A stretch of DNA of 63,792 nucleotides, counting the filler, from Reticulomyxa filosa (taxonomy: Eukaryota > Protista > Foraminifera): NCBI GenBank assembly GCA_000512085.1. It is 22 parts of 22 records of this genome, joined end to end, with 100 filler letters (N's around TTAATTAATTAA, not from the genome) between each part and the next. Parts side by side here need not be neighbours in the genome. Positions count along the whole stretch, not along the records: positions 22,119 to 24,992 come from ASPP01025697.1; 21 more parts are not named here. One strand, 5' to 3'. The position numbers were made by a program, and so were the translations under genes. This document shows, in pieces, positions 22,019 to 55,580 of the stretch. The notes under the pieces were generated by a model. That model had not been told where the DNA came from and ran no database searches. It was given only the letters and a program-made list of their open reading frames with translations. Numbering within the stretch: position 1 is the first letter of the stretch; each line of letters starts with the position of its first letter.

Positions 22019-22301
22019 NNNNNNNNNNNNNNNNNNNNNNNNNNNNNNNNNNNNNNNNNNNNTTAATTAATTAANNNNNNNNNNNNNNNNNNNNNNNNNN
22101 NNNNNNNNNNNNNNNNNNGAGTCATGATCCCGAGATTTTTGCAGACTAGTCTACAGAAAAAAACTTTACAGAAATGCTTACAGAAGTGCTACAGAAATTT
22201 TGGAAAATTCATCTTTTGGAAAAGAACTGCACAAGGTTTTGAAAATTTAAAAAAGAAAAATACTTAAGTTTTCCAAAGTCAAAACAAAAACAAACACAAA
22301 T

Positions 22302-22790
22302 TCACTCCTCCCTTCTCCTCTGTCTTAGAGGCTGGTTCTCCTCGTTCTCCTCGTTCTCCTCCTCTTCTTGGACAACTTCATTAAGAAGATCGCTAAGTCT
22401 TCTTCTCTGGACCCGAGCTCGAATTGGAGCATTCGGGACAACCGGCAGTTCTCGGAGAATGTCGGGGGAAGGGAGGTAATTCCTCACACCAGTGTAACGA
22501 GATTCGACGAACTCCCCGTGCTCGTCCACCATAATATCATCTCGAGCTGGCACCGACGGCGAAAGCTCCGATGATGATAACTCTCCATTCGACAGAGCAA
22601 CTAGTCTTGCTCGTTCATCCTCCGGCATTACAGGCAGCTCCGGAGGTTCTGGCAAAGCGACAACTTCCTCAAAAAATTGGTCGGGCTGGGGGCGAGGTTC
22701 ATTCACTAGATCATTCATCTGCCTTTGCAAAGATTCCCTCGCTCGTCGCAAAAATTCGTTAGCATTCTCTCTAATTTGGTAGTTATTCAA
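22302..22790 (-). CDS. Acidic/Pro-rich disordered ORF, probably the -1-frame C-terminal extension of the upstream RING gene
   Basis: 162 open codons beginning at a TTG that overlaps the RING-gene TGA; ends EEEENEENEENQPLRQRRREE; coding-like composition. Confidence 0.65.
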   Translation of the reverse strand: MNNYQIRENANEFLRRARESLQRQMNDLVNEPRPQPDQFFEEVVALPEPPELPVMPEDERARLVALSNGELSSSELSPSVPARDDIMVDEHGEFVESRYTGVRNYLPSPDILRELPVVPNAPIRARVQRRRLSDLLNEVVQEEEENEENEENQPLRQRRREE

Positions 22791-23665
22791 AAATCCGCTC
22801 TAGATCTTAATCCCATAAACCTAGACCAATCGACCACCGTGAAATCGTTATCACCACGCTCAAGTCTTCCCCAGCTATTAATCGCTGGAACAAATCCATA
22901 CATGCCATTAAAACCAATGATTTCGTTACACAATTCACTGCCACATTCACAAATTTGAGACTCTCGGCAACATGGACACCTATTATCCAGAGTGGTGTGC
23001 ACCTGAGTATTCCAACAACTAGCACACAAATGATGCCCACAGCTGAGAATTCTTTCACGGACATCTGTCAAATTATATGTTTCCATACAGATTACACACT
23101 CGGTAACGGATTGACGATTCATTAAAATAAGGTTCGAATCTAAAACATTTTCAATTCCTAAACGAAGAGCCTGAACAACATTATTGAGCCGCATCCTTTC
23201 AGCATCCAGTCGGGCAATGGCTCTTTCCACTAAACTAACCATTCGTTGTCGCGAGTCAATGAGCGCGCGATTTTCTTGTCCATTTGGTAACTGCTGGGCA
23301 AAGTCGGTGGAGTCTCCAATAATTCGGAAGGGTTCGCCAGGTTCCACTTCCATCAAACGGTCGGCAAACACATCCGCCATGCCGATACCGTTGCCAGGGA
23401 CATGGACATTGTCCACCACATCAATTGCCAAACCTGTACACAACAAACTTTAGTATACGTACAACACATCACCACATAAAAACAACATACCATTGGAAAA
23501 GGTTGGTGGGGATGGCGCTGGGGATGGGTCTTCGGACTTGAATTCCTTCTCGTCTTTCTCCTCCTTGTGCTCAGCAATGTTGGCACGGGAAACACCAACT
23601 GTGAGGTCCATCACCTCATCATCACTTTCAACTAAGTCCACAAAAACATTAGAATTCAGAGACAT
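22787..23665 (-). CDS. SIM-containing RING-HC (C3HC4) E3 ubiquitin ligase-like protein, 273 aa, 2 exons (23665-23491, 23433-22787)
   Basis: 57-nt intron GTATGT...TACTAA...TACAG joins FSN-G-LAIDVVD in frame; N-terminal VFVDLVESDDE and VMDLT; coiled-coil-like LVERAIARLDAERMRLNNVVQAL; RING CVICMETY...LSCGHHLCASCW...RCPCCR. Confidence 0.85.
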
Positions 23666-23887
23666 GTTCTCAATATAGTGTTGGAACAAGCTGAAAAAGT
23701 AACTAACAACAAAGATGTTAAAAAGATGAACAAACAAACTGAAACGCTAAGTGAGTTAAAACTTTTCTAGCTCTCTAGTTCCCCTGGGATCCCCCTTCGT
23801 TCAAAAAACCAGAAACGTGGAAAATAAGTTCCCCACAGGCCCCTGAGTCCAAAACCCCATTATTTCTATAAACCAAACTCAATTCAA

Positions 23888-35009: not shown

Positions 35010-36210
35010 ATGTCAACAAACAATGATCAATTATTTTTTAATACAAGAATCCCACAGTATAAGCTTTCGCCATTGGTAGTTCTGTCGATTTTGAACCACT
35101 TCCAAAGACGACCAAACAAGTCCCCGTCGCCGGAGTTGGACACGTGCGACTTTGTAGTTGGACTGTTGTTTGGAACAAAAGAAAAGTCGTGCGTTCGAGT
35201 GATATCCAGTTTCCCGCTGTGTGTTTATCAAACGAAAAAGGTGAATCCAATGAGCCAACGAGAGCAAAATTGTACATGTATATTATACATGTATACATAT
35301 ATGTATATGTATATAATTGATTTTGATCCTTAATAGATATATTGTAAATAAAATATATCTATTAACCTAGGGTGCCCTAACATTGCCACCAGACCAAATA
35401 GTTCGAGTAGTGGACTTGCACTCGCAAGGCCATTCAAAAGACGACAAATTGGTGGGATGGTACAAGACAGGCATGACACCGGAGTCGTCGATGCACAAGC
35501 TGTTGCAAGGCGAGGAAGTGAAGATTGCGAGCAAGCGCAAAGCGAACAGCAACGAGCTGTTGCAACTGTTGGTGGATACCGAATTGATCGACAACACCAT
35601 GCGTGTCATAGGTTATGTGGGCAACGCGGTGGTAGACCCTTTGGAGTTGAATGCGCTTTCGTGGCAACAGGCAAATGCCAATGATGCTGATGACGCCGAC
35701 GAAAAGCAAGCAAAAAAAAACAAACCGCGGAAACAAAAGAAGGCGAAAAAAAGTGGCGATATTGCGCGAAATGTACAAGTGGGAGAGACGTTTTGGAAGT
35801 TTGAACCTGTTGTCATTGAGTATTCGATGGAGAAGGCGGAAGAGATTGTTTTTCATACCACTTTGAACACGCCTCCTGATCAGACGTCTTTAGATGCACC
35901 CTCGACTTTGTTGTCTGATTTGGGCCATTTGGAAAACACTTTGCAAGACTTGACAGATTCCTTGGCCAAAGTCTCTGATTTTGTTCAGTCTGCTAAAGAG
36001 TCAGATCGTTTGGATCACACGTCCTTGGGATGGGACATTGCTCACGCCTTGTCCGCCATCCCTACCATTGCTCCTCACATCTTTGAAAAAGTACTTTCCA
36101 ACAGATTGCAAGACTTGCTCATGTTGGCGTATCTGGGCAAACTCACACAAACCCAATTGAAAGTCGCCGACAAAATTAATCAAGTCTTGCATCAAACCAT
36201 TCAAAGCTAG
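35010..36210 (+). CDS. EIF3F: Eukaryotic translation initiation factor 3 subunit F (MPN domain), 2 exons
   Basis: KLSPLVVLSILNHFQRR, VVGLLFG, VISSFPL, LVGWYKTG and C-terminal FEKVLSNRLQDLLMLAYLGKLTQTQLKVADKI; intron ~35241-35370. Confidence 0.88.
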
Positions 36211-37510: not shown

Positions 37511-38730
37511 CAATCAATCAACATTAAAGAAATTGATTCCACCATCTACCATCGAGCAGCAGGAATGTAATTCCTTCCAAGCAGTTAGAAGCACGCGCCA
37601 CCATTCTGCTATAGTACAACGTCATGACACTGACATCAAGGAAGATGCAGTTAATGGAGGAAAATTTTGTTGTCGTGCATGGCTAGCATATCAATTCTGT
37701 TTTCAATCAACCCAACGGTTGAGGCTGCGACCTGGACCGACGATGCCCTTCAATTTGCAGCGGATATCTCGCATGTCACAATATCATCAAAGGAACCTAA
37801 TATAACAGTGAGTAGTATTCCATCAGGAACGCTGGCAAGAGCGGCACCCGATACCCGCGCTAGCCAACGTAGCTCTTACCATGGATCATTTGAGCAAGAT
37901 GGATTATTTACTATCGTCCCCATCAAATCCACGATCCACCTCCATCGTCAATGATTATGCGACCAAATGCTCACAACATATTTCAATATCCAGTTATGTG
38001 TGCTCTTCCGCCCTCAAATCGGAAGCGGGCATGCATATCTACGTCAACTTCATTACCAAAACCTGTGGATCCAAAAAACGTAAATGTATCCTCGACGGCA
38101 AAGTTAAATGCTACACATGCCAGGCCCATCAAACTCGCAGCATTGGGTGAGCTATCAAAGTTATTCAAGGCACTGACCCCAAGTCAACTATAATTTATGA
38201 CGACGACACTGTCCGTCAACTACAACAAAAGCACCCGCTCGAACCCCATCATATATAAGTATTGCAATCTTTTGAAAGTGATGAACAAGTCCACATGTTC
38301 CATCACATCCCCACACAATGTCATCTCAACAGATGAACTAACTGCATATACCATAAAGCTATGAAGAACATCTGCTAGTGGTATAGACCTTTTTGCGGCC
38401 CAACATTTAATCGACCTGGTCCCTTTTGAATATGAATCTGGCACAATGTCAAATTGGGCCAAGGTGATCACATTAATAACCAATGGAACTGTCTGTGAAA
38501 GTGCTGCCCCTATTGCATACGGAGCAAGATTAATTGGAATCGTGAAACTTGATGGTAGCCCTAGACCAATATCTATCGGATCCATTCTTAGAAGGTCCGC
38601 GGATGCTATCTTATTGCATAGACATGCCGAACAAATCCAAAATATTGTAGGTCCCAACCAATTTAGTATTAATGTAAAGGCTAATATCGAATTTTTGTTC
38701 ATAGATTTAAAGCCATCCTCCACCACATTC
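37511..38730 (+). mobile_element. Degenerate CRE-type non-LTR retrotransposon, N-terminal region and start of reverse transcriptase
   Basis: SASGIDLFAAQHL, AYGARLIGIVKLDGSPRPISIGSILRRSA and IVGPNQFSINVK resemble RT domains 0-2 of CRE/SLACS elements; intronless, with stops and frameshifts upstream. Confidence 0.8.
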
Positions 38731-39042
38731 NNNNNNNNNNNNNNNNNNNNNNNNNNNNNNNNNNNNNNNNNNNNTTAATTAATTAANNNNNNNNNNNNNN
38801 NNNNNNNNNNNNNNNNNNNNNNNNNNNNNNGAGAGAGAGAGAGGGCCGAAGAAGATACAACAAAGGAAGAGAAAAAGAAAGAGGGCATGACAATAAGTTT
38901 GATTATGGCATGTCTGAAAATACAAATACTTATATAATAATAAATTATTAATTACGACCGTAACAAAAAAATGATGAGAAAACAAAACAAAACAAAACAA
39001 AAATAAAGTGTGAAATGTGTTCTGTGATGTGCACAGCATACA

Positions 39043-45612: not shown

Positions 45613-47327
45613 TTATGTAAAAGATGGAGATGAGTATGGATTTGGAAGGTAGCCGGAAGCTGGTTGCGTTCCAGTTCCGAACTGCGGAGCAGATTGATTT
45701 TGTGGGATATAACCAATCATCAAGTGTGTTGATGCGAGTAGGCCAGCGTTTTGTTCAATTTTTTCGTTTTCTTGTTTTTGCTCTTTTCTTTTTGTTCTTG
45801 GGCATTAATTTCTGTTTTTTCTACTTTGTTGGACAAGGCTTCCACTTTGGAGCTGAATTCACGGAAAGTTTGGACCATGAACGGCATGGAAAACTCCATC
45901 AAATTGTATCTCCAGGACAATTCCAACACCACATCAGGGTGAATCAAAGGATAGCAAGTATACAAGCAAGCTGCAAAACATGATTTTGGACAATCATCAC
46001 ACGATACGAAAAATCGTAGTAACTCCTCAGCCAATGTCGCATCACCTGATGCAGCTCCGGTATCCATTGCATCTTGCCACAACTTGTCTTGTTTTGACAA
46101 GTTAATGGATGTTGTCCAGCGCTGGTTGCTGCGGTATAATTGAGCAGCAATTCGTCTGAACTCCAATAATTCGTGCTTTTGGAGAGTTTGAGCCAATTGA
46201 ATTTGATCAAAGTTGTCGTAATCGGCGATACTTTCGCGCAAGGCCTCATAGTTTTCTTCTTCAACCAACAAACCATTGATGGCTTCATTCACAATTTTGT
46301 TATTTTCTCGTTGGACATGTTGCAAATAAGGCATAATTAAAGGTAATTGGCCGCCCATGTCAATAGTTTGCACAACGCGTTTGTGATCCAAGCGTCCACT
46401 TAACTCATTCAACAATTCACTCAAGAACAGTGGGTGTTCACGTAAATAAAAGTTAACAGCACGATAGAATACTTCCGTATTTGCTACCCTGACAATAATC
46501 GACTTGAATTGTTCATGTTCCCAACAAGATGACGAGTGGGCAATCATGGTATCGATAGCATTATCATATTGGTCATAATGAGTGTACAAAAATACTGTTT
46601 CTTTCCAATGCAAGTTATCTTTACACGCTTGCAACAAAGTCGGAATGTTAATGCGATTCCAGAACAAGTTAATGTGTTCCATCAATTTCTTTTCCTTGTA
46701 TTTGGCATATAATATACCCAATTGAGTGTAAATCCCTTGATGAGCACGATCCAAGTTAATGCCTTGTTCCAACAAAGCAATCAATTCAGCAAAGTGACCG
46801 CCATTTTCATAGTGTTGAATCAATTCATTCAAGTGATCCATGAACACGATAATGTTGACACCGCACATTTGGGCCAATCGGAATTTGCCGTGTTCAATAC
46901 AAGCATAACAAACGTCTTTCCATGTTTGGATACTGTTTGCTTGTCTTGCTGCTTCCACTGCTTCTTGGAATAATTCCAGACGGACCAATGTGGTGGCTAA
47001 TTTGGCATAATTGCTTATTTGGGTAAAGATGATACGTGCAGCAGGGTACAATTTCTCCTCAAAACATCTATCACCAACTTTGTCCAGATTAGCGCTGTTG
47101 GGTTTACCAATAAACTGTTCCAGTGCACTGAGATCTTGAATACGTGCATACGAATAAATTAATTCGCTATCGACTGCCTTGTCTCTAACTTTACTGCGGG
47201 CCATTAGCAAATAATCGATTAACCGTTTGAAATCCTCTGTTTTGTTGGCTTTCAAAATGACCAATTCGTAATGTGTTGCATCTTGAGCTTTTAAAAAGGA
47301 TTCAATGGATTGGGTCACTAAGTCAGC
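45613..47327 (-). CDS. CHC: Clathrin heavy chain, C-terminal third (5' truncated)
   Basis: LIDYLLMAR, VDSELIYSYA, VGDRCFEEKLYPAARIIF, FRLAQMCG, LDRAHQGIYTQLGILYAKY, LQKHELLEFRRIAA, PDVVLELSWRYNLMEFSMPFMVQ. The true tail appears to shift frame near 45785 to ...HLMIGYIPQNQSAPQFGTGTQPASGYLPNPYSSPSFT*. Confidence 0.97.
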
Positions 47328-53142: not shown

Positions 53143-55580
53143 CTACTGTTTTTGAGCAGGTGCAGTTCCGGTCATTGTTGACTCGATATTCGTTTTCGCA
53201 TTTGTATCTTTGTCACTTACGCTCTTTTCTTTCAATGTTTTTTCTATCAAAGCCACATGTGCAAAAAGCATACATACGAGCAAAAGTCGAAAGTACATTA
53301 GCACTCTTTTTCTTTCACCTCACATCAAATTTGGCCATTTGCCCTTACCTTGCTCTTCCATTTCTTTCATCATTTGTTTTATTTCTTCACTGTTCATATC
53401 AATGCTTCGTTTGAACGTATAGCCCCAGAAATGGTGCTTATCTGTCCAACGTTTGAGATAGATAGCAAAAACAAAAACAAAACAAATGAACACATGTCTT
53501 TAAAATATGCGTGTGTATGTGTGTGTGTGTGTGTGAAAGCAATAACAATGAACAAAAACAAAACAAGCCTGTTGTTTTTGAAGCTTTGTATTCTTGTTTG
53601 TGCTGATCAACCGCTTGTTGCGATTGTACTTCTTCAAAATGAGAGGAATCAGTTTCGTGTTTGAGTTTGGGAACAAAAGGTGGCTTCATGCTCATCAAAT
53701 TATCCCATGGGATATCCTTGAAAAAGGCATGCTTTTTCAACTCTTCATATCCGAAGCGCCGTCGTGCAGAACAGATCAAGTTGTGGATCAAGTCTTTGCA
53801 CTCCTCGGATAAAGTAGAGTCTGCTGGAATGCGGAAGTATCGCCGAAAATGAACAATTTTGCGACATGTGGCTAAGGGATCATCCGCATAAAAAGGAGGG
53901 AACCCAACACAACATTCATACATTATCACCCCCAAAGACCACCAATCGACTCTCTTATCATATCTTTTCCAGTCACAAACCACCACACAAGCACATTAGT
54001 TACATTAATTGTAACCCCTATGAATATTGTTAGACAAGGAATATGTATGAACCAAGAGACCCCCTTTTTTTTTTTTTTTTTGATCGGAACATATTACATA
54101 TGTATTATATACATATATATGTATATATGTCGTATAAATAGTAAACAAACCCGCGTCTGGAAAAGACTTCCGGAGCAATGTAATCGGGAGTGCCGACGGT
54201 CGAATACATCAGCTTTTTTTCTCGCTCTTTGTACTTGGCACGCGTTGCTTTTGTGTTTTCAGGCGTGTCTGTGCTTTCTTTTTCGTCTTCATCCGCATTG
54301 TCTAATGTCTCTGCATTTTGCTGATATTGAGATATCATTTCATCATTTTCTGTCCGAAATGACTTGGCTAACCCAAAATCGGAGAGTTTGATATGTCCAT
54401 CATTTGCGATCAATATGTTATCGGGTTTTAAGTCCCCTTTTTTTTTTTTTTTTTTGTGTAACTTATTGCAAGTTAGTTAGTACAAAAAAAAAAAAAAAAG
54501 AAAATAACTTTTACTTAAAAAAAAAAAACTAAACCGATAGAACAAAGTCCAATTGATGTACCGCGTTAATCGCAGCTGCTAACTCCGCCATATAGAAACG
54601 GGTGGTTTTTTCCGACAAGATGTCTTGTTTCATCAACACATTCATTAAATCTCCTCCTCCACAAAATTCCATTACTAAATACAAATAAGTGTCATCCTTT
54701 TTTTTTTTATAAAATGAGGCAAAGAGAGGAAGGGGAGAAAAAAAAAGTATACGTAGAAGAAAATTCTGTTCTGAAAAGATACACTTTTTTTTTAAAAAAA
54801 AAAAATTTAAGTTAAAACTTGGAAGGAAAAATGTAATTTGACAAGCCAAGGACTATCTGCCCCAGCCATTAGATTTCTCTCTGCTTCAACATGTGTGGCC
54901 TGATTTTTGGCGATCATGTCTTTTTTTCGCATTGTCTTCATTGCATATACTTGCTTCGAGTTTTGTTCTCGTACTATGCGGACTTCACCAAAGGCACCCT
55001 TACCAATTACACGCACTAATGTAAAGTCTTTCAGCCCCACTTTGTGGCGTTGACTTCGAAGTGCTTTTTCTAATTTTTTTTAATTTAGCAAATCCGATTT
55101 TTTTTTTAAAAAAAAAAAAGGAAATAAGGATTATTATAATAATAACTTTCGGCCATTAAATACTCTGTATATTTTTCTCGTTTTTGCTCTTCTGTCAAAC
55201 CCATGGCTTCCAAACGAGTCAAATTTTGTTCCATTTTTTGTGTCCTTTTTTTAAAAAAAAAAAATTAAAAGTTTGAAAAGTGTTATGGCAATCACTCGTG
55301 TTGTGGTGGTCTTTCGAAACAAACAAAAAGCGAAAATAACAATCCCATTTTACAGATAAAAGTGATGTGAAATAAAGTGCACAAATCCATTAGAATATAC
55401 CGAAGTCTTCGCGCGTTGGTGGAATTAAGACGGCTTGCTATTGTCTGTGATGAGTTTGCAGCTAACGTTACCTACTGAAACTAACAGCAAATAGAAATGT
55501 TTTTTATTTTGTACCGCTTCCACTCGTTCTTTCATTTTGGCCACTTTTGCCATCGTCTCTGGGCTAGGTTCTGATGCCAT
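53143..55580 (-). CDS. NDR: NDR/LATS-family AGC serine/threonine kinase, multi-exon, apparently complete
   Basis: N-terminal regulatory region, DFTLVRVIGKGAFGEVR, YAMKTMRK, HVEAERN, DLKPDNILI, KLSDFGL, long activation-segment insert ending MYSTVGTPDYIAPEVF, DWWSLGVIMYECCVGFPPF and hydrophobic motif FWGYTF. An extra base disrupts HR at ~54540. Confidence 0.95.

What the first reader, a model, noticed from the sequence alone, without database searches (positions are those of the whole stretch)
22787..23665. Hidden spliced gene: probable SUMO-targeted ubiquitin ligase split across two ORF-track entries
Seen: removing a 57-nt GT-AG intron (23490-23434) fuses ORFs 23450-23737 and 22787-23446 into a 273-aa protein with VFVDLVESDDE, VMDLT and LAIDVVD, a coiled-coil-like segment, a C3HC4 RING and an extra CECGSELC Cys cluster. 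Established: hydrophobic-plus-acidic and V/I-x-D-L-T motifs are SIM consensus types, and tandem SIMs plus RING define STUbLs (RNF4, Slx5/8; functionally HSV ICP0). Inference: an anti-silencing factor that removes SUMOylated host proteins from the element's DNA.
Basis: partly seen in the sequence, partly recalled or inferred. Interest (0 to 1): 0.7.

Follow-up and report, generated by a model that had tools for sequence, protein, structure and literature searches.

The report
Polinton-borne SUMO-targeted ubiquitin ligase candidate
A likely spliced, almost lysine-free RING-finger gene sits back to back with the start of a Polinton (virus-like transposon) DNA polymerase gene in what is probably a foraminiferan genome, and it likely encodes a ubiquitin ligase that would destroy SUMO-tagged host proteins, much as herpesviruses do to escape silencing.

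Summary
The intron (57 nt, 23490-23434), the 273-aa translation, the long helix and the C3HC4 RING are real. A Reticulomyxa filosa paralogue (RFI_36594, 78% identical) supports the intron and shows that the gene is longer: it runs on, without a gap, into the next ORF (22793-22302). The family protein is about 435 aa, and this copy has a one-base frame break. New here: (1) a 392-residue lysine-free stretch in both copies, a trait of Slx5, Arkadia and other E3 ligases; (2) a 635-nt nested palindrome with eight copies of a two-part site, lying about 220 nt from this ATG and from a divergent ATG; (3) that divergent ORF is identical for 39 codons to ETO19856.1, published as an R. filosa Polinton polymerase. 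So the 'element' is a Polinton-type endogenous virus. Two N-terminal xxDL motifs are rarer than chance, but they miss the strict high-affinity SIM consensus, and the third motif is weak. SUMO binding, splicing and anti-silencing were not testable. Verdict: very likely an E3 ligase, probably Polinton-borne, STUbL-like at about even odds; this copy is probably decayed.

The parts
22119..24992 (.). The contig that holds the finding (2,874 bp between N spacers); a fragment of a Polinton-type element
   Evidence: N44-TTAATTAATTAA-N44 spacers; polymerase match
23491..23665 (-). Exon 1 of the RING gene: two SIM-like motifs and the only four lysines
23630..23644 (-). SIM-like motif 1, FVDLV, followed by ESDDE
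   Evidence: identical in the paralogue
23600..23614 (-). SIM-like motif 2, VMDLT (relaxed DLT type; fails the strict [VILFY][VI]DLT)
23537..23566 (-). Lysine cluster K34, K37, K40, K43; K43 lies in FKSE, a psi-K-x-E SUMO-acceptor consensus
   Evidence: same four positions in both copies; consensus from PMC3991395 passage
23434..23490 (-). 57-nt GT-AG intron with an in-frame stop
   Evidence: paralogue comparison; not shown by RNA
22787..23433 (-). Exon 2 up to the stop of this copy: weak third motif IDVV (23425-23414), long helix, RING, Cys cluster
23108..23275 (-). 56-residue helix that runs directly into the RING (coiled-coil-like)
   Evidence: AlphaFold2 model; hydrophobic a/d positions 10 of 14 in the best register
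22967..23098 (-). C3HC4 RING finger
22928..22951 (-). Extra C-x-C-G-x2-L-C cluster, possible third metal site
   Evidence: kept in the paralogue, 0 of 56 other RING hits; model unresolved
22787..22795 (-). One-base frame break at a run of five T (G GAT TTT TGA); the paralogue is continuous here
22302..22793 (-). C-terminal part of the same gene: acidic and Pro-rich, lysine-free, with Arg clusters (possible nuclear signal, inferred)
   Evidence: 130 of 163 identical to paralogue residues 283-443; 0 K in 165 aa
23888..24522 (.). 635-nt nested palindrome; eight copies of RGWCCT-N8-GTCTCT, four per strand, in facing pairs around AT-rich spacers; 36-nt GC-rich asymmetric centre
   Evidence: 81% over 646 columns; inner arms 144 nt at 94%; fold z = -46, 0 of 20 shuffles; motif map
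24743..24859 (+). First 39 codons of a Polinton protein-primed DNA polymerase B
   Evidence: identical to ETO19856.1 / RFI_17364, listed as a Polinton polymerase in 10.1101/809541
24860..24992 (.). 133 nt unrelated to the polymerase protein up to the contig end: truncation, insertion or a long intron

Best explanation
This is likely an accessory gene of a Polinton-type endogenous virus, probably of the foraminiferan Reticulomyxa, that is predicted to encode a spliced E3 ubiquitin ligase of about 435 residues which likely binds SUMO chains through two N-terminal motifs and would send SUMO-marked host proteins to the proteasome. Shown in the sequence: intron signals, RING, helix, lysine desert, palindrome and head-to-head position with the polymerase start. 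Inferred: the mirrored palindrome with its repeated sites drives both genes, so the ligase is made early together with the polymerase; the RING recruits a host E2; the lack of lysines protects the ligase from tagging itself; the Arg clusters take it to the nucleus; its targets are SUMOylated repressors on the element's DNA (the weakest step, by analogy to ICP0). This particular copy is probably dead or damaged: the ligase frame breaks once and the polymerase match stops after 39 codons.
For: Polinton link: the divergent ORF is identical for 39 codons to ETO19856.1, Pfam DNA_pol_B_2 E=4e-30, named a Polinton polymerase in a figure legend of 10.1101/809541. The ATGs lie 222 and 220 nt from the palindrome ends. 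The paralogue differs by 22% (333 of 427 identical), like other copies of the element family: polymerase N-termini 97 of 114, six capsid genes 70-86% to their reference. One full-length relative among 1.84 billion representatives, from the same species; of the other 66 hits, one is a repeat-protein match and the rest centre on the RING. E3: complete RING with Ile, Pro and the Arg after the last Cys kept in both copies (role of these residues recalled). Lysine desert of 392 and 400 residues; 0 of 10,000 codon-position shuffles reach zero lysines (mean 14.5); other frames hold 7-16 K per 273 codons; 16 host ORFs 281 K in 3,468 aa, longest gap 95; the polymerase 124 K in 1,299 aa. Slx5 has a 398-residue and RNF111 a 663-residue desert. 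SIMs: two hydrophobic-hydrophobic-D-L motifs within 20 residues occur in 29 of 20,000 shuffles, 0 of 65 RING hits and 0 of 94 other open frames of the window; acidic flanks raise affinity and two type-b SIMs suffice for di-SUMO binding in RNF4 (PMC3901395).
Against: Neither motif meets the strict high-affinity consensus [VILFY][VI]DLT, and my tandem pattern was chosen after seeing the motifs. A review warns that many consensus matches are not real SIMs. The 18 identical residues over the motifs are no stronger than other stretches of this pair. The RING is not specially close to RNF4: TRIM32 and NOT4 score 27.5-33.1 bits, RNF4 17.7-19.3; by fold RNF4 and TRIM32 tie at E about 0.01. Lysine deserts mark many E3s that do not read SUMO, and 2 of 65 RING hits also have 200 or more lysine-free residues. 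The link to the Polinton rests on one 2.9-kb contig; the DNA around the paralogue could not be fetched. No integrase, capsid, ATPase, terminal repeat or target duplication is on the contig. Only two copies of the RING gene were found in protein collections. The 5' spacers are not more alike than shuffles (39 of 500 and 33 of 500 reach the score). Only the paralogue's annotation, not its DNA, shows the continuous frame.
Confidence: 0.45

Rival explanations
1. Polinton-borne E3 ligase or acidic transactivator that does not read SUMO. The acidic-hydrophobic N-terminus is an activation domain or an ATG8-binding (F-x-x-L) motif, as in early viral regulators with helix plus RING.
For: Strict SIM consensus not met. 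Helix-plus-RING proteins of large DNA viruses fill the fold search, none below E=0.001; weak Baculo_IE-1 match, 17.2 bits against a cut-off of 33.1; Atlas neighbours are viral RING clusters at 0.86-0.87, lead level only. FVDL fits the ATG8-binding pattern (recalled).
Against: Two xxDL motifs 10 residues apart with acidic flanks are rare in shuffles; a psi-K-x-E site holds one of the only four lysines in both copies.
Confidence: 0.27
2. Host gene (a host STUbL or other lineage-specific RING ligase) next to which a Polinton end or a foldback element has landed.
For: It has a spliceosomal intron with host-like ends (three host introns read from the window are 79-135 nt with GT...AG ends), whereas Bellas 2023 states that such endogenous viruses lack introns. 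The palindrome begins CACAG and ends CTGTG, like CACTA/Transib-type ends (recalled). The polymerase match is only a 39-codon stub.
Against: No orthologue outside R. filosa. Both ATGs lie at nearly the same distance from the palindrome. The contig has no A/T run of 10 or more, as do 6 other of the 22 contigs, so this is weak. Copy divergence matches that of the element family. No convincing target duplication flanks the palindrome.
Confidence: 0.18
3. The 57 nt are not an intron but a coding hydrophobic segment, broken here by a nonsense change; the protein would be a membrane-anchored RING ligase.
For: The paralogue is annotated as reading through the segment, which is very hydrophobic; both lengths are multiples of three.
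Against: 7 of 16 identity against 82 of 91 next door, with the conserved residues at the two splice ends; GTATGT donor, TACTAA word, CAG acceptor.
Confidence: 0.06
4. The joint is an assembly chimera, made at the palindrome from two separate loci.
For: Short-read assembly of a diverged multi-copy family; no reads could be laid.
Against: The two arms differ (81% overall) and the centre is asymmetric, which a simple fold-back artefact would not give.
Confidence: 0.04

Closest known systems
RNF4 / Slx5-Slx8 / Arkadia (RNF111) SUMO-targeted ubiquitin ligases
   Same: N-terminal tandem xxDL(T) motifs in an acidic region, a RING, and a long lysine desert (398 aa in Slx5, 663 in RNF111).
   Different: The RING is central with about 220 residues after it (RNF4's is C-terminal); a 56-residue helix and an extra Cys cluster flank it; motifs miss the strict consensus; no sequence kinship beyond a generic RING.
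HSV-1 ICP0 (and KSHV K-Rta), viral STUbLs
   Same: A DNA-virus gene with RING plus SIM, proposed to remove SUMO-based silencing of the viral genome (PMC8616421 passages).
   Different: No ICP0-family entry among the PDB hits; host is a protist; PML bodies are not known there (recalled); function here is untested.
Polintons / Mavericks of R. filosa (ETO12468.1, ETO19856.1, ETO13433.1 in 10.1101/809541; six capsid genes in Bellas 2023)
   Same: Polymerase N-terminus identical to ETO19856.1 for 39 residues; several diverged, partly broken copies (RFI_24210 runs into a reverse-transcriptase-like sequence).
   Different: No RING or SUMO-related accessory gene is mentioned in the main texts I word-searched; a spliced gene and an internal 635-nt palindrome are not part of the usual description.
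RING proteins of large DNA viruses (Nucleocytoviricota; baculovirus PE38/IE-0 type)
   Same: Helix followed by C3HC4 RING; top rows of the viral fold and Atlas searches.
   Different: Matches are weak (E above 0.001, TM about 0.2 over the query; Atlas under 0.9) and cover the RING; none of 65 RING hits has the tandem motifs.

Membership tests
RING-HC (C3HC4) E3 ligases | Eight metal ligands in C3HC4 spacing | tested here: met
   both copies
RING-HC (C3HC4) E3 ligases | RING fold | tested here: met
   model pLDDT 71-90 over the RING; Foldseek probability 1.0 to TRIM32, RNF4 and RNF168 RINGs, E about 0.01-0.02
RING-HC (C3HC4) E3 ligases | Ubiquitin transfer with an E2 | not testable with these tools
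   indirect only: lysine desert
STUbL (functional class) | Several SIM-like motifs in an acidic unstructured region | tested here: inconclusive
   one classical core with acidic flank (VDLV) and one relaxed DLT; tandem rare in shuffles, pattern chosen after the fact; third motif generic
STUbL (functional class) | High-affinity SIM consensus [VILFY][VI]DLT | tested here: not met
   VMDLT and FVDLV each miss by one residue
STUbL (functional class) | SIM-dependent SUMO binding and ubiquitination of SUMOylated substrates | not testable with these tools
RNF4 / Slx8 orthologues | C-terminal RING with sequence kinship to RNF4 | tested here: not met
   RING central in the 443-aa paralogue; RNF4 ranks below TRIM32 and NOT4; no tree was built
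Polinton / Maverick | Protein-primed PolB | tested here: met
   5' stub only, identical to ETO19856.1
Polinton / Maverick | rve integrase, capsid proteins, ATPase, protease on the same element | not testable with these tools
   contig is 2.9 kb and no genome is held; the species has six capsid genes on other contigs
Polinton / Maverick | Terminal inverted repeats (100-1,500 bp) and 5-8 bp target duplication | tested here: inconclusive
   definition from PMC10748475 passage; the palindrome arms (about 300 nt) could be two joined ends, but the centre shows no AG...CT-type ends (recalled feature) and no duplication
Programmed -1 ribosomal frameshift | Slippery heptamer plus stimulator, conserved between copies | tested here: not met
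   G_GAU_UUU is in phase with the stop, but the paralogue is continuous (S-V-E-F-I) and the downstream 80 nt fold weakly (-10.6 kcal/mol)

The most novel reading that the evidence does not exclude
A protist Polinton virus carries its own spliced ICP0-like SUMO-targeted ubiquitin ligase, evolved independently, and expresses it together with its DNA polymerase from a mirrored palindromic control region (possibly the joined genome ends of a circular form), to strip SUMO-based silencing from its DNA. Viral anti-SUMO defence would then reach far beyond animal herpesviruses, and a unicellular host would have SUMO-based intrinsic immunity.
Probability: 0.25. Interest if true: 0.8.

Novelty: new variant of a known kind. 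Interest (0 to 1): 0.6.

Why it matters
How Polintons escape or manage host silencing is open, and most of their accessory genes have no assigned function. This gene gives a cheap test: a 30-residue peptide for SUMO binding and an intact paralogue for ubiquitination assays. It also shows that intron-blind gene calling, as used in large surveys of these elements, can split or miss accessory genes. The eight-site palindrome is a defined candidate promoter or origin for a Polinton.

Tried and rejected
No genome is held. No RNA or DNA run was listed, so no reads were laid; this is no evidence on expression. Word-index search with exon 2: none of 148 candidates passed. IMG/VR: no relatives of exon 2, the paralogue, the polymerase stub or the full polymerase, and no match to two palindrome patterns. 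Metagenome scan of the motif: 5 single matches, 20-26 nt only, taken as chance. Phage and plasmid tblastn with the polymerase: none. PHROGs: nothing below E=0.08. Rfam: 0 matches. PDB sequence search with the polymerase: none. Single-sequence fold of the paralogue: mean pLDDT 43, not used. Homodimer prediction for helix plus RING: no verdict (score 0.02). Sigma-70 scan: not relevant to a eukaryote. Programmed frameshift: considered and given low weight. Homopolymer sequencing error at the frame break cannot be told from a real mutation. Similarity of the two 5' spacers: not significant. An LxCxE motif is not present in this copy. Earlier findings: none for this genome or these sequences. Not held: 10.1016/j.cub.2013.11.027, Kapitonov and Jurka 2006, PMC11426020.

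Full report
Setting. The window is a chain of 22 small contigs separated by N spacers. The finding lies on one contig of 2,874 bp (22119-24992), so genes elsewhere in the window are not neighbours. The closest named relatives of both genes on this contig come from the foraminiferan Reticulomyxa filosa. The host is therefore probably this species or a close relative.

The observation. Removing 23490-23434 gives a 273-aa open frame with the motifs quoted. The intron has a GTATGT donor, a TACTAA word about 20 nt before the acceptor, and a CAG end. 47 GT-AG removals could open the frame, so I looked for outside evidence. A search of 1.84 billion representatives gave one full-length relative, RFI_36594 (443 aa, 3,034-bp contig), among 67 hits. 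Its annotation reads through a 16-codon version of the intron at the same place. Identity there is 7 of 16, against 82 of 91 in the next exon stretch (p=8e-5), and the kept residues sit on the splice ends. The intron is thus very likely real, but no RNA shows it.

The gene is longer. The paralogue runs without a gap into what is here a separate ORF (22793-22302; 130 of 163 identical). This copy shifts frame by one base at G GAT TTT TGA. The family product is about 435 aa after splicing. The break may be a mutation or a sequencing error. A programmed -1 shift is possible in form but is not needed in the paralogue and has only a weak downstream fold.

Protein anatomy. Residues 8-22 hold FVDLV and VMDLT in an acidic stretch. 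A 56-residue helix (112-167) runs into a C3HC4 RING (171-214). A C-x-C-G-x2-L-C cluster follows; it is kept in the paralogue and absent from all 56 other hits whose RING fitted the pattern (of 65 examined). The residue before the last RING cysteine is Cys here and His in the paralogue, so a third metal site is possible (inference; the model does not resolve it). The C-terminal 160 residues are acidic and Pro-rich, with Arg clusters. The RING is generic: TRIM32 and NOT4 score best and RNF4 lower, and no fold match reaches E=0.001 in PDB or the viral library. The middle (151-273) is 58-66% identical between the copies, against 82-90% in the long flanking stretches; a dip this deep occurs in 73 of 10,000 permutations. 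Recombination or diversifying selection could explain it.

Lysine desert. Both copies have four lysines, at 34, 37, 40 and 43, and none after (392 and 400 residues). Codon-position shuffles never give zero (0 of 10,000; mean 14.5). Other frames of the same DNA hold 7-16 per 273 codons. Sixteen host ORFs that I picked as clearly coding have 8.1% lysine and no gap over 95. The element's polymerase has 124 in 1,299. Two of 65 RING hits have gaps of 200 or more. Published deserts protect Slx5 and San1 from self-ubiquitination, and RNF111 has one of the longest in humans (passages of PMC10169902 and PMC13696103). This argues that the protein is, or recently was, an active E3. It does not show SUMO targeting. 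K43 lies in FKSE, which fits the SUMO acceptor consensus.

SIMs. Neither motif fits the strict [VILFY][VI]DLT (PMC3991395 passage). A relaxed DLT pattern (recalled) occurs in 123 of 20,000 shuffles, 1 of 65 RING hits and 0 of 94 other open frames. Two hydrophobic-hydrophobic-D-L motifs within 20 residues occur in 29 of 20,000, 0 of 65 and 0 of 94. That pattern was chosen after seeing the sequence, and many of the 94 frames are non-coding. Classical four-residue cores are not enriched, so IDVV adds little. In RNF4 a tandem of two type-b SIMs suffices for di-SUMO binding and acidic flanks raise affinity (PMC3901395, passages and section 11). I put SUMO reading at about even odds.

The element. 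Upstream lies a 635-nt palindrome (23888-24522; 81% over 646 columns; inner 144-nt arms 94%; fold z = -46). It holds eight copies of RGWCCT-N8-GTCTCT, four per strand; GTCTCT occurs 13 times in the other 121,836 strand-bases of the window. The hexamers are kept while the 8-nt spacers vary, as expected for protein-binding sites (inference). On the far side an ORF starts at 24743. Its first 39 codons give the same residues as RFI_17364 (ETO19856.1), a 1,299-aa protein-primed polymerase, which a figure legend of 10.1101/809541 lists among R. filosa Polinton polymerases (passage). After codon 39 the match ends, 133 nt before the contig end. A third copy, RFI_24210, runs into a reverse-transcriptase-like sequence. 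Bellas 2023 lists six capsid genes of one cluster in this species (supplement rows). The spacers from the palindrome to the two ATGs are 222 and 220 nt, though not alike in sequence beyond chance. My odds for the palindrome: internal mirrored control region 0.55, joined element ends 0.25, inserted foldback element 0.15, assembly artefact 0.05.

Mechanism. Shown: structure and linkage. Inferred: joint early expression with the polymerase, nuclear entry, E2 recruitment, self-protection by the desert, SUMO binding by the tandem motifs, and removal of SUMOylated repressors as ICP0 does (PMC8616421 passages). Rough odds: E3 activity of the family 0.9, carried by the Polinton 0.78, SUMO-directed 0.55 to 0.6, aimed at silencing of its own DNA about half of that.

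Literature. I found no report of a RING or SUMO-directed accessory gene in Polintons. Searches: polinton, RING, E3 ubiquitin ligase, terminal inverted repeat, SUMO (4 of 5 terms; one paper on fungal transposon co-option, listing only); polinton, RING finger, head-to-tail, circular, protist (5 listed, only PMC6431247 word-searched); Reticulomyxa with polinton (3 papers). The word RING has no occurrence in the main texts of PMC10120064, PMC8502044, PMC10748475, PMC8547959, PMC11296320 and 10.1101/809541; in 10.64898/2026.10.13.758929 the passages shown use it for figure rings. PMC8502044 does report deubiquitinase-like domains in these viruses. Introns in Polinton-like elements are known from introner insertions (PMC12166617 passages). 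10.1101/068312 was seen as passages on terminal repeats. All of these were seen as passages, not whole texts. bioRxiv supplements were closed, and gene tables there (809541, 758929) may list RING genes. The R. filosa genome paper and two key Polinton papers were not held.

Verdict. The gene is probably a Polinton accessory E3 ligase with STUbL-like anatomy in a new arrangement; it is not an RNF4 orthologue by the tests run. Interest 0.6.

Noticed in passing
window 23888-24522: Nested palindrome with eight two-part sites and a GC-rich centre that holds GGGGCGG on the minus strand; candidate promoter or origin of the Polinton.
   Followed up: yes
window 24743-24992: Polinton polymerase start that breaks off after 39 codons into 133 nt of unrelated, A-rich sequence.
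   Followed up: partly
window 22790-23158 (residues about 151-273): The RING-containing middle is the most diverged part between the two copies, while the low-complexity flanks are better kept; the reverse of the usual pattern.
   Followed up: partly
window 22119-22301: Short direct repeats (12-nt period, about three copies at 22166-22198) near the contig end, downstream of the RING gene; role unknown.
   Followed up: no
P0076 (RFI_24210): Annotated protein that joins a Polinton polymerase N-terminus to a reverse-transcriptase-like piece, probably a retrotransposon insertion in a decayed copy.
   Followed up: partly
whole window: The window is 22 contigs joined by N44-TTAATTAATTAA-N44; ORFs that cross these spacers are artefacts.
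   Followed up: yes
window 45720-47204, 35473-36210, 53438-53923: Ordinary host genes by eye (clathrin heavy chain, an MPN-domain subunit, an AGC-type kinase); names recalled, not searched.
   Followed up: no
window 38220-38778: ORF pieces that look like a non-LTR reverse transcriptase (recalled resemblance, not searched).
   Followed up: no
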